A stretch of 64,000 nucleotides of DNA from an uncultured Bdellovibrionales bacterium. Its GTDB lineage: Bacteria > Bdellovibrionota > FAC87 > UBA2466. Positions 44,524 through 62,698 of the stretch are shown piece by piece (the first letter of the stretch is position 1; each line of letters opens with the position of its first letter). The notes below the pieces were generated by a model. That model worked only from the letters and a program-made list of their open reading frames with translations, was not told the origin of the DNA and made no database searches. A program made the position numbers and the translations under genes. Location of the stretch: contig CALCZU010000132.1 in NCBI GenBank assembly GCA_937903155.1, forward strand, positions 18,043-82,042. The letters run 5' to 3'.

Positions 44524-45503
44524 AAAAAATCCTTACGATATAAAACGTAACGGTGGTCCCAGAGATCGCGTGATTTCTTATTGTAGGAAGCACTGTGATT
44601 GCCACGGTGGATTAAAGCCGTCGTAAACTTATCAATTCCGTTTTCAGAAGCTTTCAATGCGGGCAAGTAACTCAAGGCTGTCGAGATCCCTTTTCCCCGG
44701 TAGACCTCATCCACGACTATTGTTTTTAAAACCAGATACTCTTTTTCAACAAAGATAAAGAAAAATCCAATCTCTTTTCCTTCGGGAGAGACGGCGAAAT
44801 AGCTGTAACTATAATCCTGTTTCGCTGCGAGCGCAGAATAGAGTTGCTTGAATAGCGGCAAAGAAATGGGTTCATAGAGTTTGTTGTTTTTAAAACCTTC
44901 AATGCTTAAGGAGTAAAGTTTCTCAACTTCTTTTTCCATGAAGTTCTCAGAATCAAACGGTCGGAACTGATAACCCTCTTGAACTAATTTCTCCCAAGTC
45001 GGTTTGATTTTTTGGGCGTATTCCTTAAGTCCTTCAGACCCAGGGCTATGGTAGTGCTCTGCCGCGACAAAACCCGCTTCTAAAAAGTACTGATTGTAGA
45101 TGACCGGATTTTTTGGCTCCCAACTGAATTGTAAAGGATCTGAGTCCTCGCGAAACCGGTAGGGAAACCAGGTATTAAAAGCCATCGGCCCATAGACAGT
45201 TTTTGCCCCACGCGCTTTCATCCACACACTTGCAGAATCAATCAGGCTTTGCGCAACTTCAGCACTCGACGCTTCGAAAAGTCCAAACGTTCCGGTGTCA
45301 GGATAATCCCGCATGAGCCCAGCACTCATCCGACCGACAGGTTCGTTGTTTTCAAGAGCAACAAAGAAACAAGCACTCGCAGAAGGCGGAAAAAGAAGTA
45401 GAAAATATTTCTTAATCGCTTCCGGTTCGCTGCCAATTTTTAAAAAGGCCGATTCAAATTCATTTGAAGGATTCTCATTCGAAAGAATTTTAATTTTCGA
45501 CAT
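44520..45503 (-). CDS. Hypothetical protein (possible GNAT-like fold)
   Basis: 327 aa with no clear motif. It is translationally coupled within the operon. Confidence 0.3.
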   Translation of the reverse strand: MSKIKILSNENPSNEFESAFLKIGSEPEAIKKYFLLLFPPSASACFFVALENNEPVGRMSAGLMRDYPDTGTFGLFEASSAEVAQSLIDSASVWMKARGAKTVYGPMAFNTWFPYRFREDSDPLQFSWEPKNPVIYNQYFLEAGFVAAEHYHSPGSEGLKEYAQKIKPTWEKLVQEGYQFRPFDSENFMEKEVEKLYSLSIEGFKNNKLYEPISLPLFKQLYSALAAKQDYSYSYFAVSPEGKEIGFFFIFVEKEYLVLKTIVVDEVYRGKGISTALSYLPALKASENGIDKFTTALIHRGNHSASYNKKSRDLWDHRYVLYRKDFL

Positions 45504-45505
45504 CC

Positions 45506-48226
45506 CTACCTCAAAATTCTGATTTCACCCTTACCTGCGTCTACCCGCACTCGATCACCCGTTTTTAAACGCGTCATTAAGCCACCATTGACACCCACAA
45601 TCGTCGGAAGACCGAGCTCTCTCGCAACGACCGCCGAATGGGACAAAAGACTTCCTCGTTCAATTAAGAGGCCGCTACACGAAGGATAAATCGGCACCCA
45701 TCCTGGATCGGTTCTTCCCGTCACTAAGATTTCGCCATCAATCCCTTGCGCATCTTTTGCGGAATGCACGACGCGAACAACGCCTTCGATAATTCCGGGA
45801 CAACAAGGAGTTCCCATCAAGACATCCGGATCATCACTGACTAAGAGATTCCTTAAGAGATCCCCTTCGGCCATTACAGAGGGAAAGCGAGCTGCGGCTC
45901 CCAGCGCACCCATCGTCACCATGCGATCGGGAGGGGCGACCGTTTTGTCGAATGTCGCATACTCCGCTTTTCGGATGGCTACGATTTGCTTCAATTCAAG
46001 AGACACGGCACGGCCCTCGATGAAAGCCACAATTTCTTCCACTGTGAGATAGAAAACATCCTGTCGAGTCTCCAAGAATCCAAGCTGGGTAAGTTTTTCT
46101 CCCATCGCTCTAAAAAGATGACGACTCACCCCAAAAATCTTCGTCCGCGCGAATCTTAAATTTTCGCGATTGCGAACGGCTCGACGGGCCTGCTTTAAAA
46201 TCCAACGGTAGACAATTTTTTTAACGCCCGAAAGCGCTTCGTCCGCCACTTTCTCGGCGGCAATGCGAATTTCTCTTTCGCGGGCTTCCATGTGCTCGAT
46301 TCGGTAAGACTGCGTTTTTACGTAACTCACCACCGATGAAATCACAAAAGTCGGATCATCGTGCAAATCCGGTTCTTCGAGTTTTAATTCGTTAATACAA
46401 CGGAATCCGTAACGGTCGAGGAAGTCTGCGAGGTCCTTCGCGAGGAAGGTTTCCTTGCCTTCGCCTTTAATAAAGCTCCAAAGCTCTTCTGGTGTACTTT
46501 CTAAAGCTTTTTTCTTTAGAATCACATCTTGATCGAGTCGAGCAGCAATTCTCATTAAACATTTTGTCGGCTCGGTGGAATCTAAATCTCCTTGCCCGCA
46601 GAGCAAGTCATTTTGAAGAGAATCTGCTTTCGATGAGTCCTTCACAACCCATTCGCTAGTGAGCTTCTTTAGCAATCCGAAAAAGACCATGCAAAGATAA
46701 TCGTTGATGATCGGTGCCTTCCATTGCTTGAGAAGTTCTTCGTCTAGATAAAAGAAATAATCCGAGAGCTCTTGCAACGACATTGCGTTGAAATTTTTCT
46801 TTCGAGCAACGTCGTAACATTTATTAAATCGATTCTGAAACTCCGCAATAATCGAATCAATTTTTAAAAACCGATTCAAAGTCCTAACGGAAAGAACAAT
46901 TTTTGAGAATAAGGAATACTTCGGTGGCTCTTTTACGAAATCAAAAATTTCTTTCAACTCAGGCCGGACCTGATCTTTCACTCCCATCATGGTTTCCATG
47001 AAGCCCTTGTTGCTCGAGGACCCCGGGAGCATCAGAACGAGCTGATACCAATTCACGAGATTGTAATAAATTCGTCCGCGAATTAGGGCGAGCATATTGC
47101 GAAAGACCTTAGCTTGTTTATCGACGAGCTCTTGAGGCACGCCCATCAGCTCGCAAAACTGAATATAAACTTGGTTATACGCCCGGCTTGCGAAACTAAA
47201 AGTCAGCGGAGACGTCACTCCACTATAGCTTTCAATGATATTCGAGTTATCCCAAAGAATCGGTTGTTTACCGACAATCGTCGGATCGTAAAAAGCATCG
47301 GGAGGAAGACTCGTAATCGGTCTCGTCTGAACCAAAAAGATTTCATTTCCTTCAAGACACCATTCGATATCTTGAGGCGATCCTAGGCTTTCTTCCAATC
47401 GACACGCAAGACCTGCGATTTTTAAAACTTGAGAGTCGGAAAGAGAGGATTTTCCCTGAAGGGTCGCTTCAAGTCCGACTTTTTCAATTCCACCTGAAGA
47501 AAGCTGAGACATCTTCTCTTTTTTATCCGCGATTTTCGAAATAATGTTTTGTGTCTCGCGGTGAGCTTCGAAATCATCCGAATCGAGTTCACCACTGACA
47601 AGCCCTTCTCCCAGTCCCCACACCGAGCTAATTAAAACATGATCTCTGTCTAAAACTTTAATGGGATGCCTCGAGAAGGCGACGCCCGCACTGGTCGCAT
47701 TCACCATCTTCTGAATCACAACCCCCACTCGGATATTGTGAAGAGTGATTCCTCTTTCCAAACGATAGCTCAAAGCTCGTTCTGAAAAACCCGAAGCCCA
47801 GCAGGCTTTAATCGATTCACAGATCTGATCAAATCCTTTCTGAAATAAAAACGAAGAGAATTGTCCCGCAAAAGAGTGCTCGCTTGAATCCTCATCGATT
47901 CCGCTTGAACGAACGGCAACGAACGGGGTCAGAAGTCCCGCTTTTTCGAGTTCACTTTTTAAAATTTCGCCTAACGAAGCTGAAAACGGAGCTGAAGTAA
48001 TCTTCGAATGGATTCGCTCGCTTTCGGCGAGTGGCTCGCCATCGACGACGAGCGCGGACTCCAAATTGTTTTCTTGAATAAATCGGTCGAAAACTTCTGC
48101 ACCGACACAAATCCAGGGCGGCACCGGAAAATTTTTCTGGGAAATTTTAGCGAGATTTGTTGCTTTACCGCCCCCGCGGTTTTGAAAGAACTCAATGGGA
48201 TCATTCGGAGATAGGATCAGATTCAT
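45506..48226 (-). CDS. PEP-utilising phosphotransferase with PPDK_N ATP-grasp domain and C-terminal phospho-His swivel domain (rifampin-phosphotransferase/PEP-synthase-like architecture, no TIM-barrel PEP domain)
   Basis: 906 aa. The N-terminus GGGKATNLAKI is the PPDK_N nucleotide-binding motif. The extreme C-terminus ERGSLLSHSAVVARELGLPTIVGVNGGLMTRLKTGDRVRVDAGKGEI is the PEP-utilisers mobile-domain motif with the catalytic His. Confidence 0.7.
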   Translation of the reverse strand: MNLILSPNDPIEFFQNRGGGKATNLAKISQKNFPVPPWICVGAEVFDRFIQENNLESALVVDGEPLAESERIHSKITSAPFSASLGEILKSELEKAGLLTPFVAVRSSGIDEDSSEHSFAGQFSSFLFQKGFDQICESIKACWASGFSERALSYRLERGITLHNIRVGVVIQKMVNATSAGVAFSRHPIKVLDRDHVLISSVWGLGEGLVSGELDSDDFEAHRETQNIISKIADKKEKMSQLSSGGIEKVGLEATLQGKSSLSDSQVLKIAGLACRLEESLGSPQDIEWCLEGNEIFLVQTRPITSLPPDAFYDPTIVGKQPILWDNSNIIESYSGVTSPLTFSFASRAYNQVYIQFCELMGVPQELVDKQAKVFRNMLALIRGRIYYNLVNWYQLVLMLPGSSSNKGFMETMMGVKDQVRPELKEIFDFVKEPPKYSLFSKIVLSVRTLNRFLKIDSIIAEFQNRFNKCYDVARKKNFNAMSLQELSDYFFYLDEELLKQWKAPIINDYLCMVFFGLLKKLTSEWVVKDSSKADSLQNDLLCGQGDLDSTEPTKCLMRIAARLDQDVILKKKALESTPEELWSFIKGEGKETFLAKDLADFLDRYGFRCINELKLEEPDLHDDPTFVISSVVSYVKTQSYRIEHMEAREREIRIAAEKVADEALSGVKKIVYRWILKQARRAVRNRENLRFARTKIFGVSRHLFRAMGEKLTQLGFLETRQDVFYLTVEEIVAFIEGRAVSLELKQIVAIRKAEYATFDKTVAPPDRMVTMGALGAAARFPSVMAEGDLLRNLLVSDDPDVLMGTPCCPGIIEGVVRVVHSAKDAQGIDGEILVTGRTDPGWVPIYPSCSGLLIERGSLLSHSAVVARELGLPTIVGVNGGLMTRLKTGDRVRVDAGKGEIRILR

Positions 48227-48238
48227 AAAGTTTTCCCT

Positions 48239-49087
48239 CTATAGTTTTCCAAACAGTTTTAATAAAAAAACCGACCAAATATGAATCACTAAGCTGAGAC
48301 TCGCCACAGCCTCTACCACTTTGTGAAGACGAAATCGAAGCAAAAGATAGGAGAGGGGAACGGCAATCGCAAATACTGCGGTCAGAGGATAAACCCCTAA
48401 ATAATAACCGCTTATGAGGGCTATCGTAGTAGTCACTAAAATGATCCCTAAACAGCCTTTGATTCCATACATCTGCCGGTAGGTTTTTAGAAGAACATGA
48501 GCATTCGGGTCGAGCTTACGAGACACTTCGTATGTGAAAAAAGAACCCAGCACGGTAAAGGCGTAGTACCAGGAATAAGATTTAGCGAGCGCTTGCGAAT
48601 CCGTCATAACGACGGGAAACAGACTGACCCAGACGAGAACTAACTGGTGGGTTGTCGCATACAAAATCTGGCGCGCCTCAAGCCACGGGCCTAAATAAAA
48701 CTCCACATACATCAGCCAAAGATGCACGGTGAGCCCCAAAAAGATAAGCCCGCTCACAGGTGAATGCGCGAAGAAAAGACAGCCAGCAAAAAGACCCATT
48801 CCCAAAACGACCAAAAGGATGACTTTCTTCACTTGTTCAACAGGGAGAAGCCCTCGAGGAAGCGGGCGGGTCGGATTTGCGATACAGTCTTTGTGGTAAT
48901 CCTTCACCTCATCCATCATTCTTAACATCGCGAAAAAAACCATAAGTCCCAGAAAAGAGAAGAGAAACTCTCTGGAAAGGAGAATGCCGCCGGCCAAAAG
49001 AGTTCCCGAGGCGCTAAATCCGCCCACCAAAATCGTATACACGACGAGAGGGAATCGCTCTTTTGTGTAGATCCACCAAGCCTTCAT
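48239..49087 (-). CDS. UbiA family aromatic/isoprenoid prenyltransferase (membrane)
   Basis: 282 aa. The first Asp-rich motif is RMMDEVKDYHKD (NDxxDxxxD type) followed by PTRPLPRGLL, in a 7 to 9 TM protein. Confidence 0.75.
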   Translation of the reverse strand: MKAWWIYTKERFPLVVYTILVGGFSASGTLLAGGILLSREFLFSFLGLMVFFAMLRMMDEVKDYHKDCIANPTRPLPRGLLPVEQVKKVILLVVLGMGLFAGCLFFAHSPVSGLIFLGLTVHLWLMYVEFYLGPWLEARQILYATTHQLVLVWVSLFPVVMTDSQALAKSYSWYYAFTVLGSFFTYEVSRKLDPNAHVLLKTYRQMYGIKGCLGIILVTTTIALISGYYLGVYPLTAVFAIAVPLSYLLLRFRLHKVVEAVASLSLVIHIWSVFLLKLFGKL

Positions 49088-49265
49088 TTTTTGTCCTTTA
49101 AACTACTTCAGTCCTACAAAACTACTGGCCCCCACTACAGCCTTGTGCACTTCGAGATGTGTCCTAAAACTTCCTCCACCCGAACACTTCAGTCAAGTGG
49201 GGAGGGACTTTTTTAAAGACTTGAAGTAAGGTTTTTGCTAACGCCTTATCCAAGGGGAAACGAAG

Positions 49266-49976
49266 ATGAAAAACCTCAGTTATTTTTTCGCATTGGCTCT
49301 TTTCATAGGGGCTTCAAGCTTTGCCATCACCCCTCCCGAAATCATCTCGAATGCCGATGCGATTCGAAATCCTTCGCAGAATTTTCACCTCAAAGTCGCC
49401 GTTACGAGCACGGACACCGATGACCAGTCTATTTTTGATGTTTCGATCCAGGGAAATACCCGAACGTTGATTCGGACGTTAAGTCCGGCCCGAGACAAGG
49501 GACGCAATATGCTGATGCTCGAAGAAGACATGTGGTCATACTTGCCCACTTTAAAAAGAGCGGTGCGAGTGAGCTTGAGCCAAAAACTCACCGGCCAAGC
49601 TGCGAATGGAGATATCAGCCGAATGAGGTGGGCCGAAGATTACGAAGCCACCCTCACCCAAGAAACACCCAAAGAGTGGGTTTTGCATTTAAAAGGAAAG
49701 AAGAAAGGTCTGACTTATGATCAGTTAGATGTTTGGGTTGAAAAAGATTCTTTTCGTCCTCTCAAAGCAAATTATCTAAGCGTTACCGGACAGACTTTAA
49801 AAGAAGCGAGTTATCTCGATTACAAACTGATGGCTGGCAAGCAACGACCTACCAAAATCGTGATTCAAGATGCGATTAAAAAATCTGCATCTTCGATTTT
49901 GACCATCCTCGAAATGGAATCACGCGATTTTCCACAATCCCTTTTCACTCAAGGAAATCTATCCCGCAGTGAATAG
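49266..49976 (+). CDS. Outer-membrane lipoprotein-sorting protein, LolA-like fold family
   Basis: 236 aa with a signal peptide. Composition and pattern are typical of small LolA-like (pfam17131-type) proteins. It overlaps the next gene by 8 bp. Confidence 0.5.
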   Translation: MKNLSYFFALALFIGASSFAITPPEIISNADAIRNPSQNFHLKVAVTSTDTDDQSIFDVSIQGNTRTLIRTLSPARDKGRNMLMLEEDMWSYLPTLKRAVRVSLSQKLTGQAANGDISRMRWAEDYEATLTQETPKEWVLHLKGKKKGLTYDQLDVWVEKDSFRPLKANYLSVTGQTLKEASYLDYKLMAGKQRPTKIVIQDAIKKSASSILTILEMESRDFPQSLFTQGNLSRSE

Positions 49977-51174
49977 ACTCGCCTTCACCCTTTTTATTTT
50001 GCTAAGTGCGTTTTATCGCTCTGCAAATGCTTACGAGTTTTCTAAAATCCAATGGACACCCGACTTTGAACTGGGACATCAGCTCGTCTACGGAGCAAAA
50101 GAAAACAAACTTTCGAAGAACTTAGGTTACACCGTTCTCTCGCTCAAGACGGACTTCCCCACCGAGTCGGCGACAGATCTCATCAACACGCGCATTTCTC
50201 TCAGGGGAGCACTGGACACCCAAGGGCCCGATGAAATTTCGATTCGTGCTTTTAACCTCAATTACGGAAACAACTGGCTGACCGTTACTGCAGGTTTTCA
50301 AGAAATAGCGTGGGGAGAAACTTTCGGGGTTTATATTTCCGATCTCGTCAATTCTAAGGACTTAAGAGATCCGTTCCTAAACGATTTGAGTTGGATTCGA
50401 ATTCCAACGGCGTCTTTACTCGCGCAAATCAATCTCGATAATTGGACACTCCAAGCCATCGTCACTCCGTTTCCGAAGAACAATCAATTCCCAGACGAAA
50501 TCAATCACCTTAAAATTGTTGAGCCTCCGGCGCTTCGACGAGACAATGTCTTTGAGCAAGCCGAGTGGGGCGCAAAGTTAGGACGTCTCTTTTCAACGGG
50601 CCTGGACGTGAATTTTTTCGCGCTCTACCATTGGAATCGAAACCCAGTGTTTGCACCTCAGCTTGTGGGAACGACGATTGGACTCATGCCCATTGTCCAG
50701 CAAACAAAATCGACAGGGCTGAGCTTTACTCAAGCGTGGGATAAAGTCGTTCTTCGAGGAGATTTCGTTTACCATTTACAAACACCGTTACAACCCGACT
50801 TCACCCAAAGACACCGAATCGGGAATTTTTTCCAAGCCATTCTGGGATCGGACCTCACGCTCGAGGAAAATTTGATCTTAGGGGCGCAATATCATGGGGA
50901 CTACGACGATGCTTCGAACCGGCATTGGTTGGGTTTGAGGGTCTCCAAACCCTTGCTTCGGCAAAAATTAACGCCAGAGCTTTTTGTTTTTCAAGGAATC
51001 AACAATAGCGACACCTGGATCCAACCCAAAATCCGATGGAATACTTCAGCAAATCTATCTCTTGATTTTGAATACTCTTGGATTCCCAATTTTCGAAGAA
51101 CGGCTCAGCCTGGATACTTTGGAACGTTTGAGAATTATCACCGGGTGTTTAGCTGGCTAAAATACAAATTTTAG
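49969..51174 (+). CDS. Putative outer-membrane beta-barrel protein
   Basis: 401 aa with a signal peptide. Alternating amphipathic beta-strand pattern and a C-terminal aromatic residue (...WLKYKF). Confidence 0.4.
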   Translation: MNRLAFTLFILLSAFYRSANAYEFSKIQWTPDFELGHQLVYGAKENKLSKNLGYTVLSLKTDFPTESATDLINTRISLRGALDTQGPDEISIRAFNLNYGNNWLTVTAGFQEIAWGETFGVYISDLVNSKDLRDPFLNDLSWIRIPTASLLAQINLDNWTLQAIVTPFPKNNQFPDEINHLKIVEPPALRRDNVFEQAEWGAKLGRLFSTGLDVNFFALYHWNRNPVFAPQLVGTTIGLMPIVQQTKSTGLSFTQAWDKVVLRGDFVYHLQTPLQPDFTQRHRIGNFFQAILGSDLTLEENLILGAQYHGDYDDASNRHWLGLRVSKPLLRQKLTPELFVFQGINNSDTWIQPKIRWNTSANLSLDFEYSWIPNFRRTAQPGYFGTFENYHRVFSWLKYKF

Positions 51175-52259
51175 ATCTTTTTCAGAAGTTCCACTTCGTA
51201 AACACCGACTTTTTCTTTCGAAATTAATTCGCGGTAGTTTTGAGTGATGTCGACGTAACCTGTTTTGTCACTGTTCTCAGGGATGTGGAGGTAATGTCGT
51301 AAGACGACCAATGCATTTTTTGAAAGATGCGGTAAGAGATCCGCAAGGTACTTCTTTTCTTTATTTCCCGTAAAATAAGACGGAACATCGGAGAGTGAAT
51401 AAAAATCAATCGGGGAATTCGCCGTTTGAGCGAGTTCAATCACATCTCCCTGCTGATATGAAACCTCACAGTTTTTTGCGCCTTCTTTTGCTGCAGCAAA
51501 AACATCGGGATGACATTCCACAGTACAGCCTTCGGGATAGGCAATTTCTCCCATAAAAAGAAGCTGCAAAAAGAAATTTTCGCGCGCTAACGTATTTTCA
51601 AAAAGATGGGCAAAGACTCGATTGTAAAACCCGACGTAACTCTCGGAGATATTCTTCTTGGTAAAATCGCCTTTATAGAGGAGCGCATTAAAAACCGAGG
51701 CATTTCCTAAGAGCGCGAGCACTAGTTTCCAACGCAAACGCGGAAAACGTTTTTTAAAGTACTCCTTTTGCTCTTTTAAATCTCGGCATTCAAAAATTTT
51801 TCTCCCCGCACGGCCTGTGATTTTGGAATTTACTTTGGAGAGATTTACAAAAAGATTTTCCCACTTACCGAGATACAATAAAGGCTTCCAGTAAATCGAT
51901 TCAAACATTCCCGAGAGATATTCGCGCGCAGGATTCGAGAGTGTCAGAGAATTAAAAATCTTTTTTCTCTCTTCGGCCGTCGCTTCTACTCCGGGATAAC
52001 CGAAAAGTTTTTTAAATTCATCGAGAGAAAGCGCTTTAACGCCTTCAATTCGCATTTCGGTCAGATAGAGCTGAAAAGGAGAAACATCGACGCAAGTGAG
52101 TTTCTTTGGCGCGCGAGAGAGGAGAGGCATGGCTCGCCCGCCACTTCCCGCAACGGTAAAAACATGGGAAGCATTTAGCGGGAGCAAGGCGACTTCTAAA
52201 GCCGTATCTTCATTAGCTAAAGTGTAGTTCAGTTTATTTTCAAAATATTGATTGCTCAC
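51171..52259 (-). CDS. DUF3419 / BtaA-like protein (SAM:diacylglycerol 3-amino-3-carboxypropyl transferase family)
   Basis: 362 aa. The N-terminus LNYTLANEDTALEVALLPLNASHVFTVAGSGGRAMPLL....LTCVDVSPFQLYLTEMR matches the BtaA/DUF3419 pattern (NY..cWED...L.....vl.itSgGcnaL..L....v.aVD.np.Q..L.eLK). Confidence 0.5.
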   Translation of the reverse strand: MSNQYFENKLNYTLANEDTALEVALLPLNASHVFTVAGSGGRAMPLLSRAPKKLTCVDVSPFQLYLTEMRIEGVKALSLDEFKKLFGYPGVEATAEERKKIFNSLTLSNPAREYLSGMFESIYWKPLLYLGKWENLFVNLSKVNSKITGRAGRKIFECRDLKEQKEYFKKRFPRLRWKLVLALLGNASVFNALLYKGDFTKKNISESYVGFYNRVFAHLFENTLARENFFLQLLFMGEIAYPEGCTVECHPDVFAAAKEGAKNCEVSYQQGDVIELAQTANSPIDFYSLSDVPSYFTGNKEKKYLADLLPHLSKNALVVLRHYLHIPENSDKTGYVDITQNYRELISKEKVGVYEVELLKKI

Positions 52260-52361
52260 GACCGCATCCCTCTCAAACCTTGTAGATGCCCCGCCCGCCT
52301 CACTATTAGAAAATTTCGCCTAAATTAGCAAGCCGTTCCTATCAATCTATGGTAACTCTTT

Positions 52362-53780
52362 TTGAAAATTTATAACTTTATGAATTGTATAGAAATTTTT
52401 GCGGAACGACAAAAAGAGGTCAAAGACAATCTCGCTCTATGGTGTCCTGGCCAAGAGAAAATGAGTTTCGGAGAATTATACTCGCTCGCCGCTCGCATTC
52501 AGATTGAACTTTTGAAGCAGGGGTTACGTCCAGAAGATCCGGTTTTAGTTTTTGAAGGTTTATCACCTCGACTTTATGCGACGATTTTAGCCCTTTTATC
52601 GACGGGAGCGACGATTCTCTTCGTTGAGCCTTGGATGCCTTTGAAAAAAATTGAACATGTGATTCAAACTGCAAAACCTCGTTTCTTTCTTGCGGGAGTC
52701 GTTGGTAAACTTTGGGGTTTAAGAGTTCCTGCAATCCGCAAAATTCCAAATTGGATCAGTGTCAACTCGCTCGCAAAAGCTACCAAAACGGGAGAGCTTA
52801 AAATCGAATCGGTTCCCGGCGAAGTTCCAGGGATTATCACTTTTACAACTGGCACAACGGGAAAACCGAAAGGCGTTGTTCGACACCAAAGTTATCTTCT
52901 CGAACAGTACCGCGTTTTTTCAAAGTCTCTTTCAATTAACGATCATTCGGGACCTGACTTGTGCATTTTTGCAAACTTTGCGCTCGCCAATCTTGCAGCA
53001 GGTAGAGGCAGTCTCATTATTCCCTCTGGATGGAAGAAAAAGCATTTAAAACAGCTCGATCATTTTTCCGCGAAAGAAAAACCGGAGACAATGACTTCGG
53101 GCCCGGCGTTCCTCATGCGTTTAATGGAACTTGGGGTCGCAAGAGATCTCAAATCGATTCATATCGGTGGAGCTCTCACCGATTGTGCGATTTTCGAAAA
53201 GGGATTTGCTCACTGGCCAAAAACACACTGGATGCACCTCTATGGAAGCAGCGAAGCTGAGCCCGTAGCACTTGCAGATGCCGAAGAAGCCGTTCGAAAA
53301 AGCCGCGAAAAAGGCCTGTTTCAAACTCTCTATCTGGGAAAACCGATTTCCGAAGTCGAAGCAAGAGTCGAGGACAAAGGCCTTTGGATCACAGGCCCTC
53401 ATGTTTGCCCAAAATACTTTGCAAACGAAGATGAGAATCGAATCCACAAACACACCGATGAAAAAGGTCGAGTGTGGCACGCGATGGGAGATCGGATTGA
53501 AGAAGACTCTAGCGGATGGTGGTATTCGGGAAGGGCTCAGCAATCGCGCGCTGATTTTACGTTAGAACAAAATATTTATTCTCACCTTCAATCGAGCAAC
53601 GCCTTTCTTCATCGAGACAAAGACAAGTTGATTGTTTATGGAAAAAATCTCGAGAAACGAAAAGGCGAACTTCTAAAAGCATTTCCTTCTCTGACAGATT
53701 GTTTTTCCGCACCCATTGTCCGAGATCGCAGACACCGCGCCCGAATCGACCGCGTCGAAAGCCGCAAGCGCGCGAAGTAA
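52362..53780 (+). CDS. AMP-dependent synthetase/ligase (adenylate-forming enzyme)
   Basis: 472 aa. The core motif ITFTTGTTGKPKGVV is the A3 box (T/S)GTTGxPKG. Confidence 0.75.
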   Translation: MKIYNFMNCIEIFAERQKEVKDNLALWCPGQEKMSFGELYSLAARIQIELLKQGLRPEDPVLVFEGLSPRLYATILALLSTGATILFVEPWMPLKKIEHVIQTAKPRFFLAGVVGKLWGLRVPAIRKIPNWISVNSLAKATKTGELKIESVPGEVPGIITFTTGTTGKPKGVVRHQSYLLEQYRVFSKSLSINDHSGPDLCIFANFALANLAAGRGSLIIPSGWKKKHLKQLDHFSAKEKPETMTSGPAFLMRLMELGVARDLKSIHIGGALTDCAIFEKGFAHWPKTHWMHLYGSSEAEPVALADAEEAVRKSREKGLFQTLYLGKPISEVEARVEDKGLWITGPHVCPKYFANEDENRIHKHTDEKGRVWHAMGDRIEEDSSGWWYSGRAQQSRADFTLEQNIYSHLQSSNAFLHRDKDKLIVYGKNLEKRKGELLKAFPSLTDCFSAPIVRDRRHRARIDRVESRKRAK

Positions 53781-53897: not shown

Positions 53898-55982
<2,085 letters not shown>

Positions 55983-58046
55983 TTAGTGAGCCCAGTCTCT
56001 GAGACCTTCGCGTCCTAAGTTTCTCGCCTGAGCGATTCTTTCAGGCGTAATAAATCCTTCGGGCCCGCGAATCGCCGAGAGTTTTGCACCGTGTTTTAAA
56101 CCAATTTTATAAATTTCTTTCACTCGATCCATTGAGAGTTCGCGAGAGAGAGAAAAGGGCTCATATCGGCCTTCCATCGTGAGAAGAATCGTTTCTGCTA
56201 GGCACGCATAGACCGAAGGTTTGGGCAGTCCGATATCGACGTTGTAGTCGGGAGTTCCTGGAAGATGCACTTCTCCGCTTTCGATCACCAAAACATCGGG
56301 GCGCTTCGCCGCGTCTTCCGCACTAATATCGAGTGGCCGCGAGCAATCGCAAATCACTGCCCCCGGTTTCACTTCGTTAATATTTAAAATGCTGCCAGAG
56401 AGATTTGAGGTCGCCGTCACAATGAGATCGGCCGTCGGAAGATCCGCATTGGCATGAGTCGACAACTTTACTTTGGTGTGAGGAGACTTCGCTAAGACTT
56501 CTTCTCTTAACTCCAAAAGCTTGTCCGAACGCTGCCCAACAAGCACAATATCGTCGAAAACCAATGACACCAGAAGCGAAGCCACGCGCCCGATACTACC
56601 GGTCGCGCCAATAATCATCGCTCTTCCGTGAACTCGTTTGCCATTTTCATGGGGTTTTACAAATCCCATTTGAGCAACCATATCTCTCGCAGCCCAAAGT
56701 GTTGTCGCAACTGAATAAGAATTCCCTGTCGTGACAGGAAGTGGAGAGCGCCTGGAAACCGTCACTCCCGCATCCCCCACAATTTTGGTGTAAGCTCCGA
56801 GACCGAAAAGCAAAGCGCCATCTTTTTGTGCCATGACACTTGCGTTGACGAGTTTTTTGTAAATCATTTCTTCTGAGTTTGAGAGAAGTTGTTTCGGTGT
56901 TCCCATGATCCCGTAAATATCGCAGACCACTTCTTGACCATTAAAAGCACTCTGTGCACCAGTCAAAAGTCCGTATTTAAACACAGGGAGACGAATTAAA
57001 GACTTCTCAACCAAATCCTTCACCGGTTTAGACGTTTTTTTAAAGGGCCGAAACGCAGGAACTCTAAAAATATCCCTTTGGCTGAGAGGATGAACGATGA
57101 AGGCACAACGTCTTGCCCCTTCGACTCTTTCCCCTTTTAACCGGTTAGGTCGAATTTTTAATTTCGAAATCCATTCCAAAGCGAAATCATTGAATGCGAG
57201 TGGGCTATCTTCTGCGAGACGAATCTGATCAATCGTCGCTGAAAGCAACGAAAAGGGTTTTGCTCGCATGGCTTCAAGAAGCGGGTGGTGCGGAACAAAT
57301 TCGATAACCTGAGCCACTCCATTGGCTTCCAATTGTTCTCGCTGCGAACGAGAGAGAAAATCAACAAAAACAATCTTCCCTTTAACGACACTTAAATCAG
57401 GAATGTGTTCGAAGAGACTCGAGTAAGTGACAAAAACGTCGGACTGCTTGACCCACTCGCCCAGTTTCTTGAGCAAAGGCTGCTTTTTGTTATTGGGATT
57501 AAAGTAACTTTTCACCCAATTTAAAACTTTTAGCCCTTTGGTGAGGCGCTCTACGTTTGCTTCCCCTTCGAGTAAAACGGGGAGAGACGAAAAGACAAGC
57601 GCATCAGCACTAAAAATACGCGCACCATTTGCTTTGAAGACTTCGTAAAAGGAACTCGCTAGCACTGAGTGGAAGAGAACTTTTTTTCCACGAACCAGAT
57701 GCGGGTGATCTTTAAACACCTTTTTAAGTGTCCATTCTGCAAATAGGTTTCGAATTTCGTCGCCAATGTAAACCTGGCTTCTTTTTGCCAATCGAAAAAG
57801 GGCGAGCGTTTGGTCGTGAAATACTTGGGTCTGGCCAATTCCAATCGATTTACGTGTTCCGCTGAGAGCAATCGCATCCACATAGCCGTCATAGCGTTGG
57901 ATCAAGGCTTCGGCCGTTTTAAAATCCCATCCGATCGAGTGCGTTTGGACGTTAAAATCAATGCCTTCCATCTCGAAGATAAACTCTTGAGGGGTAGCGA
58001 CATTCAAAAAATCTAAAATTAAAATTTTTCTCTCTTTGCGAATCAT
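55983..58046 (-). CDS. Two-domain protein: N-terminal ~300-aa unknown domain fused to a C-terminal acyl-ACP reductase (AAR)-like NAD(P)-binding domain
   Basis: The C-terminal half aligns block-by-block with cyanobacterial AAR: AFIVHPLS vs FGLIGHLTS, TTGNSYSVA vs TTGNTHTAY, IIGATGSIGRVAS vs VVGATGDIGSAVC, LVGQRSDKLLELREEV vs LTARNQERLDNLQAEL. The comparison is from memory of the AAR sequence. Confidence 0.5.
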   Translation of the reverse strand: MIRKERKILILDFLNVATPQEFIFEMEGIDFNVQTHSIGWDFKTAEALIQRYDGYVDAIALSGTRKSIGIGQTQVFHDQTLALFRLAKRSQVYIGDEIRNLFAEWTLKKVFKDHPHLVRGKKVLFHSVLASSFYEVFKANGARIFSADALVFSSLPVLLEGEANVERLTKGLKVLNWVKSYFNPNNKKQPLLKKLGEWVKQSDVFVTYSSLFEHIPDLSVVKGKIVFVDFLSRSQREQLEANGVAQVIEFVPHHPLLEAMRAKPFSLLSATIDQIRLAEDSPLAFNDFALEWISKLKIRPNRLKGERVEGARRCAFIVHPLSQRDIFRVPAFRPFKKTSKPVKDLVEKSLIRLPVFKYGLLTGAQSAFNGQEVVCDIYGIMGTPKQLLSNSEEMIYKKLVNASVMAQKDGALLFGLGAYTKIVGDAGVTVSRRSPLPVTTGNSYSVATTLWAARDMVAQMGFVKPHENGKRVHGRAMIIGATGSIGRVASLLVSLVFDDIVLVGQRSDKLLELREEVLAKSPHTKVKLSTHANADLPTADLIVTATSNLSGSILNINEVKPGAVICDCSRPLDISAEDAAKRPDVLVIESGEVHLPGTPDYNVDIGLPKPSVYACLAETILLTMEGRYEPFSLSRELSMDRVKEIYKIGLKHGAKLSAIRGPEGFITPERIAQARNLGREGLRDWAH

Positions 58047-59047
58047 GCGTTTTCCCTCTGTAAAAAATCGCTATACCCTCTAAAAAATACATCTTGGTAT
58101 TTTTGAAAGGAAGGCACGAGGTTTTCTGAAAAGTCTCTGGTAAATTCCGGGTTTTTTAATTCCGTCGGAGTAAAACAAAAATCAAAAAGTTGAGACGGTA
58201 TATGCGTGTACCGAGTTTGTAGTTTCAGTGTCATAGAGGGGGCTCGGGTCATCAAAACTTTGGTTCGCGGAAAATATCGCCGCACCATCAAATTTGCTAA
58301 AATCGAGGCTCTCAGACTGTTGGGATTGTAAACACCATAAATCGGTTTGAGATCATTCATAAAGAGTGCCTTTACAAAGGCAAGGGCCGCCACATCGACG
58401 GGCACCAATGGGAGCAACGCTTTTCGTGCTCCTGGAATCGGAAGCACAGGGAGCCTTCCCAAAACTCTATTGGACTTTAAATTTTGTAAAAAATTTAAAA
58501 GGTAGTAAGGCCCATCTAGTTTTGCGATTTCACCTGATTGGCTGTCACCCACGAGAATTCCCAAGCGCAGTGCAACGCCTCTGACAGAAGACTCTAACAC
58601 GAGCTTCTCCGCCATCGCTTTGGTATGCGCGTAGGCTTTTTTCTTTGACGGCAGTGCGGTTAAAGGCAATTCATTTGAAACCGCTCCCCACGAGTCATTT
58701 TCGACAGCGTAACTAGAAGCATGCAGAAACAGCGGCTGATTCTGCGTTCTTTGCGCCCACTGGACAATCGAAGACGTTGCTAAAATATTATGGAGGTAAC
58801 ACTCTCGGTAATTCGCTTCGAATTGATAAAGGCCGGCCAGATGAATGATCGCATCGACTTTATTTTTCACGCCGTAAAGAGAGGTCGGGTCCGAGAGATC
58901 ACATTTGACGGATTTGATTCGACTATCGAGAAACTTCCGTTCACTTCTTGAGAGAAGGATAATCTCTGAAACTCTTTCTTCTTTTAACAGTTCACTTAAA
59001 ACCTGTTTCCCCAAAAATCCTGTCGCGCCGGTTAATAAAACTTTCAT
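58043..59047 (-). CDS. SDR-family NAD(P)-dependent epimerase/dehydratase/reductase
   Basis: 334 aa. N-terminal LLTGATGFLG Rossmann motif and a catalytic YxxxK region. It overlaps neighbours by 4 bp on both sides, so it is part of an operon. Confidence 0.65.
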   Translation of the reverse strand: MKVLLTGATGFLGKQVLSELLKEERVSEIILLSRSERKFLDSRIKSVKCDLSDPTSLYGVKNKVDAIIHLAGLYQFEANYRECYLHNILATSSIVQWAQRTQNQPLFLHASSYAVENDSWGAVSNELPLTALPSKKKAYAHTKAMAEKLVLESSVRGVALRLGILVGDSQSGEIAKLDGPYYLLNFLQNLKSNRVLGRLPVLPIPGARKALLPLVPVDVAALAFVKALFMNDLKPIYGVYNPNSLRASILANLMVRRYFPRTKVLMTRAPSMTLKLQTRYTHIPSQLFDFCFTPTELKNPEFTRDFSENLVPSFQKYQDVFFRGYSDFLQRENA

Positions 59048-60006
59048 ACGGATTCACTCAATAATTCTGGATACGTCTCTGTCATCGTTTTACGAAGTCG
59101 ATTGGTTCGATACACTTTTAGAGAAGACGGAAGAATGGAAAACTCGAGACGACTCGCTTTGGTCAAAGTTTCACCATCGCCAAAAACACAGAGTTTCTCA
59201 CCATCAATGGACTCTACAACGACCTTTTTTGAGGTAAAGGTAATGGCACCCTCGGGAGGTCTCCCTCTTTTGATATCCGAAAAAACTTTGAGAACATCTA
59301 CGGCACGCGTTTTTGCGATAATCAGCGATTCCATATAGCCGTCGCTGTTTCTGGCATTGGGAGAGACCCAGAGATCCCCTCCGAGCTTTTGTTGATTGCA
59401 AATGAAAATAGCCGCGGTGTCGTGCACGCCATGATAACTCTCAGAAGTAATGCGCACCTTGTGCTTATAGCCATTCTGGAAAAAGATTTGTTCGAGAGAG
59501 AGAAAAGAATAAATCTGTGACTTCATTTTTTTCGCAAGCCAGTTGATCGGTTTGAATCGATTGCGGAGCTGATTAAACTGCAGCGTGAGCAACGCGCCAA
59601 AACCAATTCCGCCAACTGTCGCAAAAGGACATCCATTCACAATAATGAGGTCCATCTCCTCATATTGTTTTTCTTGGATGAGTTCCGGAACTTTTTCCCA
59701 GTTCACTCTCATCCCGAGTTCTTCAACGAGATCATTTGCGGTGCCACCCGCAATTAACAAGAGAGGAAGATTTCTTCCCATCACCGCCGGCAATGCTTGG
59801 TTCAAAGTGCCGTCGCCCCCGATTAAAATCACGCATTCATAATCCGCGGGCTGGAGCTTCCAAAGACACTCGCGCAGTTCTTCGGTAGATTCGGGACAAG
59901 CAAATTGAGTTTGGAAATTTTTTAAGAATTTTTCTGCCATCAATTGATGGAGTTGAATTTCGGCTTTGGCCTTACAGCCATTCACTACAATAAAAACTTT
60001 TTTCAT
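59044..60006 (-). CDS. Lipid kinase, diacylglycerol-kinase catalytic-domain family (YegS/BmrU-like)
   Basis: 320 aa. The DAGK_cat signature is VILIGGDGTLNQALPAV. Gly-rich nucleotide loops IAGGTANDL and GGIGFG are present. Confidence 0.7.
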   Translation of the reverse strand: MKKVFIVVNGCKAKAEIQLHQLMAEKFLKNFQTQFACPESTEELRECLWKLQPADYECVILIGGDGTLNQALPAVMGRNLPLLLIAGGTANDLVEELGMRVNWEKVPELIQEKQYEEMDLIIVNGCPFATVGGIGFGALLTLQFNQLRNRFKPINWLAKKMKSQIYSFLSLEQIFFQNGYKHKVRITSESYHGVHDTAAIFICNQQKLGGDLWVSPNARNSDGYMESLIIAKTRAVDVLKVFSDIKRGRPPEGAITFTSKKVVVESIDGEKLCVFGDGETLTKASRLEFSILPSSLKVYRTNRLRKTMTETYPELLSESV

Positions 60007-61273: not shown

Positions 61274-61317
61274 TTATGACAAACTGCATTCACTTTCCTC
61301 CGCTATCCTCTGGGAAT

Positions 61318-62520: not shown

Positions 62521-62698
62521 GACCGGTTCTCAGCCAGCCTCTTGCGTCCTTGATGACGCGTGATGCATTTCTGCCGTCGCATTAAGATTTATCGACGACT
62601 TGGCAATCTGCATTCCCGTGGATACAATGGCATCAAGTTCGAATTCCGTCCGTACATTACCAAAAACAAAAAGCAGTTATTACTTAGGAGGTTCTTCC

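What the first reader, a model, noticed from the sequence alone, without database searches (positions are those of the whole stretch)
55983..60006. Operon of an acyl-ACP-reductase-like fusion protein, an SDR and a DAGK-type lipid kinase
Three minus-strand genes overlap by 4 bp each. The first is a 687-aa protein whose C-terminal ~380 aa align block-by-block with cyanobacterial acyl-ACP reductase (fatty aldehyde forming), preceded by an uncharacterised ~300-aa domain. The second is a Rossmann SDR of the epimerase/reductase type. The third is a diacylglycerol/sphingosine-kinase-family lipid kinase. AAR homologues outside cyanobacteria are poorly understood. Coupling to a reductase and a lipid kinase suggests a route from acyl-ACP to fatty aldehyde to alcohol or long-chain base, then a phosphorylated lipid. 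FadH is encoded immediately upstream, which fits handling of unsaturated acyl chains.
Basis: partly seen in the sequence, partly recalled or inferred. Interest (0 to 1): 0.55.

Follow-up and report, generated by a model that had tools for sequence, protein, structure and literature searches.

The report
Fatty-acyl reductase core of lipid cluster
The three genes are real and form the conserved core of a larger, uncharacterised lipid-making gene cluster of predatory Bdellovibrio-type bacteria, built around a previously undescribed two-domain relative of the cyanobacterial enzyme that turns fatty acids into fatty aldehydes.

Summary
The three overlapping minus-strand genes exist as described, but the gene order is reversed. 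Transcription runs lipid kinase, then reductase (SDR), then the 687-aa protein. FadH lies downstream, not upstream, and is absent from all 82 related loci examined.

The C-terminal half of the 687-aa protein is a true AAR/PigE-type thioester reductase. It aligns along the whole AAR fold, with an invariant catalytic Cys615 and a GATGSIG nucleotide loop. The N-terminal 312 aa has no sequence family. Its predicted fold is closest to the same AAR/TAD fold, but it lacks the cysteine and the glycine loop.

The two-domain architecture occurs in at least 592 species genomes. Outside Bdellovibrionota it sits beside wax-ester synthase and alcohol dehydrogenase genes, which supports a fatty aldehyde/alcohol-forming role.

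In Bdellovibrionota the trio is part of a 9-11 gene cluster. The other members are a BtaA-like SAM transferase, an AMP-ligase, a UbiA-like membrane protein, a PigC/rifampin-phosphotransferase-like dikinase, a GNAT or formyltransferase, and a LolA/ABC exporter. All of these lie in the window at 39.5-53.8 kb.

The product is unknown, probably a fatty-alcohol-based polar outer-membrane lipid. The FadH argument is not.

The parts
59044..60006 (-). First gene of the trio: a soluble lipid kinase of the DAGK_cat/YegS/BmrU family (320 aa).
   Evidence: Pfam DAGK_cat 3e-15 and YegS_C 1.5e-11. NCBIfam PRK13057 'lipid kinase' 2.7e-27, below its cutoff. PDB matches are DgkB, BmrU and YegS. GGDGT, GTAND and GDGE are invariant in 33 orthologues. 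Present in 33 of 34 Bdellovibrionota-type loci.
58043..59047 (-). Second gene: an extended SDR of the thioester-reductase / fatty-acyl-reductase type (334 aa). Predicted to be the fatty aldehyde (or acyl thioester) reductase.
   Evidence: Pfam NAD_binding_4 2.8e-29. NCBIfam PRK07201, 4.5e-32 over profile positions 1-350 of 657. PMC11948995 uses that profile to find the AcrB fatty acyl-CoA reductase. Best PDB match is the MxaA thioester reductase 4u7w, 8.5e-13. S111, Y139 and K143 are invariant in 37 homologues. ATGA overlap with the kinase gene.
57111..58046 (-). N-terminal domain (residues 1-312) of the 687-aa fusion protein. A two-lobe alpha/beta domain with an AAR/TAD-like fold, without a GxGxxG loop or a conserved Cys. 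Its role is unknown (partner, substrate or ACP binding?).
56076..57101 (-). C-terminal AAR/PigE-N-type NAD(P)H-dependent thioester reductase domain (residues about 316-657) of the fusion. Nucleotide loop GATGSIG lies at residues 480-486 (56589-56609). Catalytic Cys615 lies at 56202-56204.
   Evidence: NF053554 PigE 8.2e-42 (residues 316-657 to profile 4-336). TIGR04058 AAR 4.2e-16. PDB 4ppm 2.5e-23 and 6jzq 3.4e-10, with Cys615 aligned to AAR Cys294. G480-G486, C615, A617, E618 and T619 are invariant in 38 sequences. The roles of these cysteines are described in PMC8341465.
53898..55973 (-). FadH-type 2,4-dienoyl-CoA reductase / OYE flavoenzyme (probable true start ATG at 55934). A lineage-specific neighbour downstream of the fusion, not part of the conserved cluster.
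   Evidence: Oxidored_FMN 1.8e-83 plus Pyr_redox_2. BLAST against all ORFs of the 83 non-redundant sets (82 related loci plus the window segment) finds only itself. Absent in the closest relatives L087 and L088. Start region examined.
52362..53780 (+). AMP-binding (ANL) acyl-adenylate-forming enzyme. A conserved cluster member.
   Evidence: Pfam AMP-binding 4.6e-29. NF006754, 3.9e-39. It is fused to the UbiA-like protein in L011, L019 and L032, and to an alpha/beta hydrolase in variant clusters.
51171..52259 (-). DUF3419 / BtaA-like SAM-dependent (3-amino-3-carboxypropyl) transferase homologue. In 18 of 34 loci it directly follows the fusion gene.
   Evidence: Pfam DUF3419 1e-37. Present in 30 of 34 Bdellovibrionota-type loci. 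DUF3419 is the annotation carried by a putative algal betaine-lipid synthase (BTA1 homologue) (PMC10685587). NEDT, AGSGG and LSDVPSY motifs are conserved.
49266..51174 (+). LolA-like lipoprotein/lipid carrier (49266-49976) and a DUF1302-like outer-membrane protein (49969-51174). Predicted export module.
   Evidence: Pfam LolA_like 6e-42 and DUF1302 2e-5. Co-located in 8 of 34 loci, directly after DUF3419 in L003, L008 and L009.
48239..49087 (-). UbiA-superfamily polytopic membrane protein (282 aa, about 8 TM). The first Asp-rich motif is intact and the second is degenerate.
   Evidence: NF010118 prenyltransferase 7e-10. Pfam UbiA 6.9e-8 on the L011 fusion. LRxxDExKDYExD...NPxRPLPRG is invariant, whereas the second motif reads ExxRK. 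TM estimate.
45506..48226 (-). PEP-synthase-like dikinase of the rifampin-phosphotransferase / PigC / RedH architecture: ATP-grasp domain, middle domain, His swivel domain.
   Evidence: PPDK_N 5e-73 and PEP-utilizers 4e-19. NF004881 887.8 bits, above its 883 cutoff. PigC 3e-101, RedH 2e-103, RPH 1e-100, all full length. PDB 5fbs 1.4e-78, deposited as 'phosphoenolpyruvate synthase'. The Rph_4th domain is present in orthologue L088. Present in 23 of 34 loci.
44520..45503 (-). Tandem-GNAT N-acyltransferase-like protein. In variant clusters it is replaced by a formyltransferase-like gene.
   Evidence: Pfam Acetyltransf_1/7. The profile against PDB hits GNAT proteins in both halves. GNAT occurs in 15 loci and formyltransferase in 11 of 34. 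In the loci whose gene maps I read through they do not occur together, but I did not count this. Formyltransferase identified.
39550..44523 (-). ABC ATPase (40758-41441) and two FtsX/MacB-type permeases (39550-40761 and 43297-44523). They bracket an OlsE-like fatty-acid-hydroxylase-family protein (42414-43379) and an unassigned 338-aa ORF (41438-42454).
   Evidence: Pfam. (OlsE NF052566 1.4e-44, below cutoff). ABC and FtsX occur in 8 of 34 loci each, and directly follow the dikinase in L088.

Best explanation
The kinase-SDR-fusion trio is the conserved, translationally coupled core of a 9-11 gene lipid-biosynthesis cluster. The cluster is characteristic of Bdellovibrionota (Bdellovibrionales, Bacteriovoracaceae, Oligoflexia).

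Step 1 (inferred from homology and conserved catalytic residues). The C-terminal domain of the 687-aa protein takes a fatty acyl group from acyl-ACP or acyl-CoA onto Cys615. It then reduces it with NAD(P)H to a fatty aldehyde, as AAR and the PigE N-domain do. The N-terminal domain is a diverged copy of the same two-lobe fold. It lacks the nucleotide loop and the cysteine, so it is probably non-redox and acts as a binding or scaffolding module.

Step 2 (inferred from family and context). The AcrB-N/MxaA-type SDR reduces the aldehyde to a fatty alcohol.

Step 3 (inferred from family only). The DAGK-type kinase phosphorylates a lipid hydroxyl, either the fatty alcohol itself or a lipid derived from it.

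Later steps (speculative). The BtaA-like enzyme adds the aminocarboxypropyl group of SAM to a hydroxyl. A GNAT or a formyltransferase caps the resulting amine. The AMP-ligase, the UbiA-like membrane protein and the PigC/RPH-like dikinase complete the head group or add a second chain. The LolA-like/DUF1302/ABC-FtsX genes export the lipid to the outer membrane.

FadH is a local passenger gene.
For: The catalytic machinery of the AAR-type domain is intact and invariant. The published mechanism for AAR and PigE is summarised in PMC8341465.

The SDR has an intact S-Y-K triad and belongs to the thioester-reductase class. The kinase motifs are intact. ATGA overlaps link the three genes.

Context in 34 Bdellovibrionota-type loci:
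- DAGK 33
- DUF3419 30
- SDR 29
- AMP-ligase/UbiA 26
- dikinase 23
- GNAT 15 plus formyltransferase 11

These genes stay together even though their order and orientation are shuffled. In L088 all of them form one co-directional operon with overlapping genes.

The AMP-ligase::UbiA fusions tie the second module together.

Independent support for alcohol or aldehyde formation comes from Desulfobacterales, Myxococcota and Gammaproteobacteria. There the same two-domain protein sits beside WS/DGAT (12 of 44 loci; 10 of the 12 immediately adjacent by my reading of the gene maps), beside Fe-ADH-SCP2 (9 of 44) or beside the same SDR family (9 of 44). According to PMC11948995, the three known fatty acyl-CoA reductases are found in only 1%, 31% and 26% of WS/DGAT-bearing bacteria.
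Against: No member of this two-domain family has been assayed. The acyl donor (ACP or CoA), the chain length, and whether release is at the aldehyde or the alcohol stage are all unknown.

No ACP gene is present in the cluster.

In L003, L008 and L009 the SDR is missing, so step 2 is not obligatory.

Nothing shows that the kinase acts on a fatty alcohol. DAGK_cat enzymes are known for DAG, ceramide, sphingosine and similar substrates.

The N-domain keeps several invariant acidic and basic residues (D53, D57, D148, K224, D229). It may therefore have a catalytic role of its own that I have not identified.

The second Asp-rich motif of the UbiA-like protein is degenerate.

The final product is a guess.
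Confidence: 0.55

Rival explanations
1. A self-contained three-gene operon, helped by an upstream FadH, converts (unsaturated) acyl-ACP to an aldehyde, then to an alcohol or long-chain base, which the kinase phosphorylates as the end product.
For: The domain assignments of the three proteins are correct. The genes are translationally coupled. FadH follows on the same strand.
Against: FadH is downstream and is unique to this genome among the 83 non-redundant sets, i.e. 82 related loci plus the window. It is absent in the 71%-identical relative. Six to eight further genes co-occur with the trio and form one operon in L088. No amine-introducing enzyme for a long-chain base is among the conserved neighbours.
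Confidence: 0.12
2. A specialised-metabolite pathway with prodiginine/tambjamine-like logic. The AMP-ligase activates a fatty acid. The PigE-N-like reductase makes the aldehyde. The PigC-like ATP-dependent enzyme condenses it with a nucleophile to give an alkaloid-like or enamine product.
For: The reductase domain scores best against the PigE N-domain (8e-42). The 906-aa protein aligns full-length with PigC and RedH (about 1e-101). An AMP-ligase is present. The thioester-reductase role of PigE is described in PMC8341465.
Against: No aminotransferase, pyrrole or bipyrrole genes, carrier proteins or PKS/NRPS genes occur in any locus. The 906-aa protein scores equally well against rifampin phosphotransferase and passes only a generic PEP-synthase-like model. 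The cluster is conserved across many Bdellovibrionota-type loci and is linked to LolA/ABC-FtsX export and lipid-type enzymes (DAGK, BtaA-like, OlsE-like). That fits a membrane lipid better.
Confidence: 0.08
3. A ceramide-like (sphingolipid-type) pathway. The kinase would be a ceramide kinase (CpgB-like), the SDR a CerR-like ketoreductase, the GNAT a bCerS-like N-acyltransferase, and the AMP-ligase an acyl-ACP synthetase.
For: The enzyme classes resemble those I recall for the Caulobacter ceramide genes (a GNAT-type ceramide synthase, an SDR-type reductase, an acyl-ACP synthetase-like AMP ligase). That comparison is from memory and was not checked here. What the paper I read (PMC11324152) confirms is only that Caulobacter has a ceramide kinase. 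The kinase's best NCBIfam model is a generic 'lipid kinase'.
Against: No serine palmitoyltransferase or alpha-oxoamine synthase is among the gene families shared by four or more loci. The SDR is of the thioester-reductase type (MxaA/AcrB-N), not NDUFA9-like. This scheme leaves the AAR-type reductase without a role.
Confidence: 0.06
4. Kinase-reductase couple of the ProB/ProA or Ask/Asd type. The DAGK-like kinase makes an acyl phosphate, which the Cys-dependent reductase converts to the aldehyde.
For: The kinase is almost always immediately upstream (33 of 34 loci). Some homologues carry precomputed Semialdhyde_dh hits. Cys-thioester reduction of acyl phosphates is established chemistry for ASADH, ArgC and ProA (general knowledge).
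Against: DAGK_cat kinases are only known to phosphorylate hydroxyl groups. The fusion works without any such kinase in 44 loci of other phyla, where it sits next to WS/DGAT.
Confidence: 0.05

Closest known systems
Cyanobacterial acyl-ACP reductase (AAR, Synechococcus Orf1594; PDB 6jzq)
   Same: Same fold and the same catalytic layout in the C-terminal half. The alignment covers AAR residues 66-336, with the GxGxxG loop and the acyl-accepting Cys (Cys294 matching Cys615). The predicted chemistry is the same: an acyl thioester goes to an acyl-S-enzyme and then to an aldehyde.
   Different: Only 59 bits against TIGR04058 (cutoff 450). Twice the length, with an extra N-terminal AAR/TAD-like domain. 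No aldehyde-deformylating oxygenase partner. The partners here are an SDR, a lipid kinase and a BtaA-like enzyme, or WS/DGAT in other phyla.
N-terminal thioester-reductase domain of PigE (prodigiosin) and related TamH/Kec enzymes
   Same: Closest sequence relative of the catalytic domain (8e-42; PDB 4ppm 2.5e-23). The Cys is conserved (PigE Cys296, PMC8341465).
   Different: PigE fuses the reductase to a class-III aminotransferase at its C-terminus. Here the extra domain is N-terminal, is not an aminotransferase, and has no PLP motif.
Terminal amidation domain (TAD) of the carmabin NRPS CarI (PDB 9e4s/9e4u)
   Different: TAD binds NAD through GxGxxG and has an invariant Cys. The N-domain here has neither. 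Sequence identity is 13-14%.
Bacterial fatty acyl-CoA reductases AcrB (Maqu_2507 type, PRK07201) and FarA/FcrA feeding WS/DGAT
   Same: The SDR matches the N-terminal half of the PRK07201 model. The fusion+SDR or fusion+Fe-ADH pairs next to WS/DGAT occupy the same pathway position, supplying the alcohol for wax esters.
   Different: The work is split between an AAR-type enzyme and a separate aldehyde reductase. In this window there is no WS/DGAT, and the alcohol is predicted to enter a polar-lipid pathway.
BtaA/BtaB betaine-lipid (DGTS) pathway
   Same: A DUF3419/BtaA-type protein is a near-constant partner (30 of 34 loci).
   Different: No BtaB methyltransferase is among the conserved neighbours. 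Instead there is a GNAT or a formyltransferase. The acceptor is unknown and may be a fatty alcohol rather than diacylglycerol.

Membership tests
Long-chain acyl-ACP reductase (AAR, TIGR04058) | Scores above the curated equivalog cutoff (449.7 bits) | tested here: not met
   59.2 bits, E 4.2e-16.
Long-chain acyl-ACP reductase (AAR, TIGR04058) | Catalytic cysteine (Cys294) and GxGxxG NADPH loop in register | tested here: met
   Cys615 aligns with Cys294, and GATGSIG aligns with GATGDIG. Both are invariant in 38 homologues.
Long-chain acyl-ACP reductase (AAR, TIGR04058) | Single-domain protein of about 340 aa, paired with an aldehyde-deformylating oxygenase | tested here: not met
   687 aa with an extra N-terminal domain. 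None of the 18 neighbouring ORFs scanned between 39.5 and 62.5 kb matched a ferritin-like or ADO-type family.
Long-chain acyl-ACP reductase (AAR, TIGR04058) | NADPH-dependent reduction of acyl-ACP to fatty aldehyde | not testable with these tools
   Needs an enzyme assay.
PigE-type bifunctional thioester reductase/aminotransferase (NF053554) | Reductase domain fused to a C-terminal class-III PLP aminotransferase; full-length score of at least 850 bits | tested here: not met
   Only profile positions 4-336 of 837 are matched, at 143.5 bits. There is no aminotransferase domain.
NAD_binding_4 / thioester-reductase SDRs (PF07993) | Passes the Pfam gathering score; TGxxGxxG loop and S-Y-K catalytic triad | tested here: met
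   102.5 bits against a cutoff of 20.1. The window protein has the GATGFLG loop. S111, Y139 and K143 are invariant in 37 sequences.
AcrB-type fatty acyl-CoA reductase (PRK07201) | Full two-domain protein of about 660 aa above the 549-bit cutoff | tested here: not met
   111.6 bits, and only the N-terminal half of the model is matched.
DAGK_cat / YegS-BmrU lipid kinases | DAGK_cat plus YegS_C domains above gathering scores; GGDG motif | tested here: met
   56.4 bits against 23.6, and 44.7 against 27. GGDGT is invariant. The TIGR00147 subfamily cutoff (118.65) is not reached, at 65.8 bits.
DAGK_cat / YegS-BmrU lipid kinases | Identity of the lipid substrate (DAG, ceramide, alcohol) | not testable with these tools
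   Needs a kinase assay.
OleABCD olefin pathway | OleA thiolase together with OleB (hydrolase), OleC (AMP-ligase) and OleD (SDR) | tested here: not met
   Weak OleC and OleD hits only (3e-16 and 3e-13, far below cutoffs). A hydrolase::AMP-ligase fusion exists in variant clusters. No thiolase family is among the conserved neighbours.
BtaA/BtaB DGTS synthesis | BtaA-type DUF3419 protein plus a BtaB N-methyltransferase | tested here: inconclusive
   DUF3419 is present. No conserved methyltransferase lies in the 10-kb flanks. The rest of the genomes was not searched.

The most novel reading that the evidence does not exclude
The cluster makes a so-far undescribed class of outer-membrane lipid built on a fatty alcohol rather than on glycerol. 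The double-AAR-fold reductase and the SDR make the alcohol. It is then phosphorylated by the DAGK-type kinase, or ether-linked by the BtaA-like enzyme to the aminocarboxypropyl (homoserine) group of SAM, or both. The amine is N-acylated (GNAT) or N-formylated. In the most daring version, two successive phosphorylations (kinase, then PigC/RPH-like dikinase) give an alkyl or alkenyl diphosphate. The UbiA-like enzyme then transfers it, a fatty-acid-derived parallel to prenyl-diphosphate chemistry. Separately, the same reductase family would be a fourth, unrecognised route to the alcohols of bacterial wax esters.
Probability: 0.2. Interest if true: 0.8.

Novelty: new variant of a known kind. Interest (0 to 1): 0.6.

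Why it matters
Three points make this worth following up.

1. It defines an uncharacterised protein family: an AAR/PigE-type thioester reductase preceded by a degenerate copy of the same fold. The family is present in at least 592 species-level genomes across Bdellovibrionota, Desulfobacterota, Gammaproteobacteria, Actinomycetota and Chloroflexota. Sources currently label it 'hypothetical' or 'predicted amino acid dehydrogenase'.

2. Its position next to WS/DGAT makes it a candidate for the missing fatty-alcohol source in wax-ester-forming bacteria that lack AcrB, FarA or FcrA.

3. In predatory Bdellovibrionota it anchors a conserved cluster that combines enzyme types not previously seen together: a lipid kinase, a BtaA-like transferase, a UbiA-like protein, a PigC/RPH-like dikinase and a Lol-like exporter. 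This points to an unknown envelope lipid in a group whose outer-membrane lipids are already known to be unusual (from general knowledge; my literature search on Bdellovibrio lipids returned nothing relevant).

All of this can be tested directly by heterologous expression and lipidomics.

Tried and rejected
- **Sequence evidence that the N-domain duplicates the C-domain.** hhalign of the two halves gave only a 35-column, non-significant match (probability 1.2%). The relationship therefore rests on fold comparison only.
- **Pfam on the N-domain.** No hits.
- **Promoter and terminator scan of 51.0-61.4 kb.** Counts were no higher than in shuffled sequence, so it says nothing about operon limits.
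- **FadH as a pathway member.** Rejected, because FadH is unique to this window.
- **Ole olefin pathway.** Considered because of OleC/OleD-like hits and hydrolase::AMP-ligase fusions. Rejected as a membership claim because no OleA is present and scores are far below cutoffs.
- **Sphingolipid pathway.** Considered and rejected for lack of an Spt-type enzyme.
- **Wax-ester storage in this window.** The only trace is a weak WS/DGAT-like match (E 0.0018) on the non-conserved 338-aa ORF.
- **Look-up of the window's own contig.** Failed. Cluster look-up gave no names or accessions, so the organism is known only as a Bdellovibrionota-like uncultured bacterium. Its best species-level relative is 53% identical.
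- **AFDB Foldseek.** The library was unavailable.
- **Literature searches.** Searches for COG5322, DUF3419 and Bdellovibrio lipids found no study of this family or cluster.

Full report
**1. Observation**

The three ORFs are present on the minus strand: 59044-60006 (320 aa), 58043-59047 (334 aa) and 55983-58046 (687 aa). Both junctions are ATGA overlaps, which is typical of translational coupling.

On the minus strand the transcription order is kinase, then SDR, then the 687-aa gene, then FadH. FadH (53898-55973) is downstream, not upstream. Its most plausible start is the ATG at 55934, behind an AGGAG motif and 48 nt after the stop of the 687-aa gene.

**2. The three proteins**

*The 687-aa protein.* Residues 316-657 match the N-terminal reductase domain of PigE (NF053554, 8.2e-42) and the AAR equivalog model TIGR04058 (4.2e-16, profile positions 75-335 of 339). 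They also match the PDB entries 4ppm (PigE, 2.5e-23) and 6jzq (AAR, 3.4e-10).

The alignment is not limited to the Rossmann segment. It covers:
- the N-lobe (GLGAYTKIVGD);
- the nucleotide loop (GATGSIG);
- the catalytic helix, where Cys615 (VYACLAETILL) aligns with AAR Cys294 and PigE Cys296.

According to PMC8341465 these are the residues that carry the acyl-enzyme intermediate. In 38 homologues down to 37% identity, the GATGSIG loop, Cys615, Ala617, Glu618 and Thr619 are invariant.

*The SDR.* It belongs to the NAD_binding_4 / thioester-reductase class (2.8e-29). Its best curated model is PRK07201, the profile that PMC11948995 uses to find the AcrB fatty acyl-CoA reductase. Its best solved relative is the myxalamid reductase domain MxaA. 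S111, Y139 and K143 are invariant.

*The kinase.* It has DAGK_cat and YegS_C domains with invariant GGDGT, GTAND and GDGE motifs.

**3. The N-terminal domain**

It has no Pfam match in 27 family members. An AlphaFold2 model built from a 27-sequence alignment is confident (pLDDT 90.1, pTM 0.87).

Two independent structure comparisons place the AAR superfamily first:
- Foldseek also ranks the TAD first (E 2e-5, TM 0.48).

TAD is itself an AAR relative with NAD and an invariant Cys (bioRxiv 10.1101/2024.10.28.620694).

The N-domain has no glycine-rich loop; the equivalent strand reads KKVLFHSVLASS. It has no conserved cysteine. Its invariant residues are D53, G54, D57, G63, W105, D148, K224, D229 and P252. 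Profile-profile comparison of the two halves is not significant.

I therefore read the protein as two AAR-type folds in tandem, the first degenerate. This is a fold-level statement only, not proven duplication.

A profile of the N-domain finds only 570 proteins among 1.84 billion representatives. The domain is always at the N-terminus of proteins of about 700 aa, or alone at about 300 aa. In L085 the two halves are separate adjacent genes.

**4. Distribution and context**

A scan of one genome per GTDB species found more than 592 relatives with the full two-domain architecture. They occur in Bdellovibrionota, Desulfobacterales, Marinobacter, Oleiphilaceae, Hahella, Actinomycetota, Anaerolineae and others.

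I called ORFs in the 80 best of those loci, in the four loci fetched through protein look-ups and in a 24-kb segment of the window. I clustered the ORFs by all-against-all BLASTP. After dropping two duplicate loci, 83 sets remained: 82 related loci plus the window. Two contexts emerge.

*(a) Thirty-four Bdellovibrionota-type loci, including the window.*

| Gene family | Loci (of 34) |
|---|---|
| DAGK-type kinase | 33 |
| DUF3419 | 30 |
| SDR | 29 |
| AMP-ligase and/or UbiA-like | 26 |
| PEP-synthase-like dikinase | 23 |
| Tandem GNAT | 15 |
| Formyltransferase-like | 11 |
| ABC, FtsX, LolA-like, DUF1302 | 8 each |

In the loci whose gene maps I read through, GNAT and formyltransferase-like genes do not occur together, although I did not count this. 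Gene order and orientation vary between loci, yet the set stays together. In L088 everything from the kinase to FtsX is one co-directional operon with overlapping genes.

In the window the same genes lie at 39550-53780. The commonest arrangement is kinase-SDR-fusion-DUF3419 (18 loci). In the window FadH occupies the slot after the fusion, and DUF3419 lies 3.7 kb further on.

FadH has no homologue in any other locus. It is absent in the relatives with 71% and 54% identity.

*(b) Forty-four loci of other phyla.*
- WS/DGAT wax-ester synthase is present in 12. By my reading of the gene maps it is the immediate neighbour in 10 of them.
- An Fe-alcohol dehydrogenase-SCP2 protein is present in 9.
- The same SDR family is present in 9.
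- Patatin-like and PhaR/phasin-like genes are each present in 6.
- The fusion gene is tandemly duplicated in 6.

WS/DGAT needs a fatty alcohol. Pairing of the fusion with either of two unrelated aldehyde-reducing enzymes next to WS/DGAT is good contextual evidence that the fusion supplies a fatty aldehyde.

**5. Other cluster members**

- *906-aa protein.* It passes the PEP-synthase-like model NF004881. It aligns full-length, and equally well, with PigC, RedH and rifampin phosphotransferase. The orthologue in L088 has the Rph_4th domain.
- *282-aa protein.* It is a UbiA-superfamily membrane protein. The first Asp-rich motif and the RPLPRG motif are invariant, but the second motif is degenerate. 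It is fused to the AMP-ligase in three loci.
- *Variant clusters.* These carry a formyltransferase-like gene and an alpha/beta hydrolase, free or fused to the AMP-ligase, in place of the GNAT.
- *DUF3419.* This is the annotation carried by a putative algal betaine-lipid synthase, a homologue of BTA1 (PMC10685587).

**6. Mechanism**

Shown by sequence:
- an intact AAR-type active site;
- an intact SDR triad;
- intact kinase motifs;
- translational coupling of the three genes;
- conserved co-location with the other cluster genes.

Inferred: an acyl thioester is reduced to an aldehyde by the fusion (Cys615, NAD(P)H). The SDR then reduces the aldehyde to an alcohol.

Inferred from family alone: the kinase phosphorylates a lipid hydroxyl.

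Speculative: the BtaA-like enzyme transfers the aminocarboxypropyl group of SAM to a hydroxyl. The new amine is N-acylated or N-formylated; the apparent alternation of GNAT and formyltransferase fits an amine being capped. The LolA-like and ABC-FtsX system then exports the lipid.

The roles of the AMP-ligase, the UbiA-like protein and the dikinase are open. One attractive but unproven scheme is alcohol to alkyl phosphate to alkyl diphosphate, followed by UbiA-type transfer.

**7. Comparison with known systems, and novelty**

The catalytic domain is a member of the AAR/PigE-N superfamily. It is not an AAR orthologue: it scores 59 bits against a 450-bit cutoff, it has no ADO partner, and it is twice the length. 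It is not a PigE either, because it has no aminotransferase.

No source names the family beyond 'hypothetical' or 'predicted amino acid dehydrogenase'. Full-text searches for COG5322, DUF3419 and Bdellovibrio lipids found no study of it.

PMC11948995 reports that the three known fatty acyl-CoA reductases occur in 1%, 31% and 26% of WS/DGAT-bearing bacteria. That leaves room for further reductases.

I rate it a new variant of a known kind of enzyme, embedded in an undescribed lipid gene cluster.

**8. Verdict**

It is unproven for the kinase step, and wrong about FadH and about the operon being self-contained.
- Interest is 0.6.

Noticed in passing
window 42414-43379 (-): A fatty-acid-hydroxylase-family membrane protein whose best curated match is the ornithine-lipid hydroxylase OlsE (1.4e-44, below cutoff). 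It lies between the two FtsX permease genes of the cluster. This hints that the product, or another aminolipid, is hydroxylated.
   Followed up: partly
window 41438-42454 (-): A 338-aa ORF with no Pfam family and only a weak match to the C-terminal part of WS/DGAT (E 0.0018). It is not conserved in the other loci.
   Followed up: partly
L011:1495-3981, L019:14294-16576, L032:14235-16517: Natural fusions of the AMP-binding enzyme with the UbiA-like membrane protein (760-828 aa). In other loci the AMP-binding enzyme is instead fused to an N-terminal alpha/beta hydrolase (790-840 aa), an order reminiscent of OleBC fusions.
   Followed up: partly
L033, L037, L051, L054, L060, L075 (Desulfobacterales): Two full-length copies of the two-domain reductase in tandem. 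They lie next to WS/DGAT, Fe-ADH-SCP2, patatin-like and PhaR/phasin-like genes, which looks like a neutral-lipid (wax ester) storage locus.
   Followed up: partly
L085:3765-5864: The N-domain (316 aa) and the AAR-type domain (370 aa) are encoded as separate adjacent genes 37 nt apart, within an otherwise typical cluster. This is either a genuine split or a frameshift in the assembly.
   Followed up: no
L001:14634-18196 (Bacteriovoracaceae): In this locus a fatty-acid desaturase-family gene (283 aa) and a CarS-like (CDP-archaeol-synthase-like, PF01864) gene sit among the cluster genes, next to the UbiA-like gene. The combination is not seen in the other loci.
   Followed up: no
window 60143-61273 (-) and 61276-62520 (+): Directly upstream of the kinase gene lies an HD-GYP-type (HD_5) protein with an N-terminal signal-like segment. 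Divergent from it is a 414-aa secreted-looking protein with no family match. Neither is conserved next to the cluster elsewhere.
   Followed up: no
window 62600-64000 (+): A secreted subtilisin-like serine protease, identified by reading the AVVDSG, HGTHV and GTSMAAP motifs and truncated by the window end. Homologues flank the cluster in L023, L025 and L050. This is probably synteny rather than shared function.
   Followed up: no
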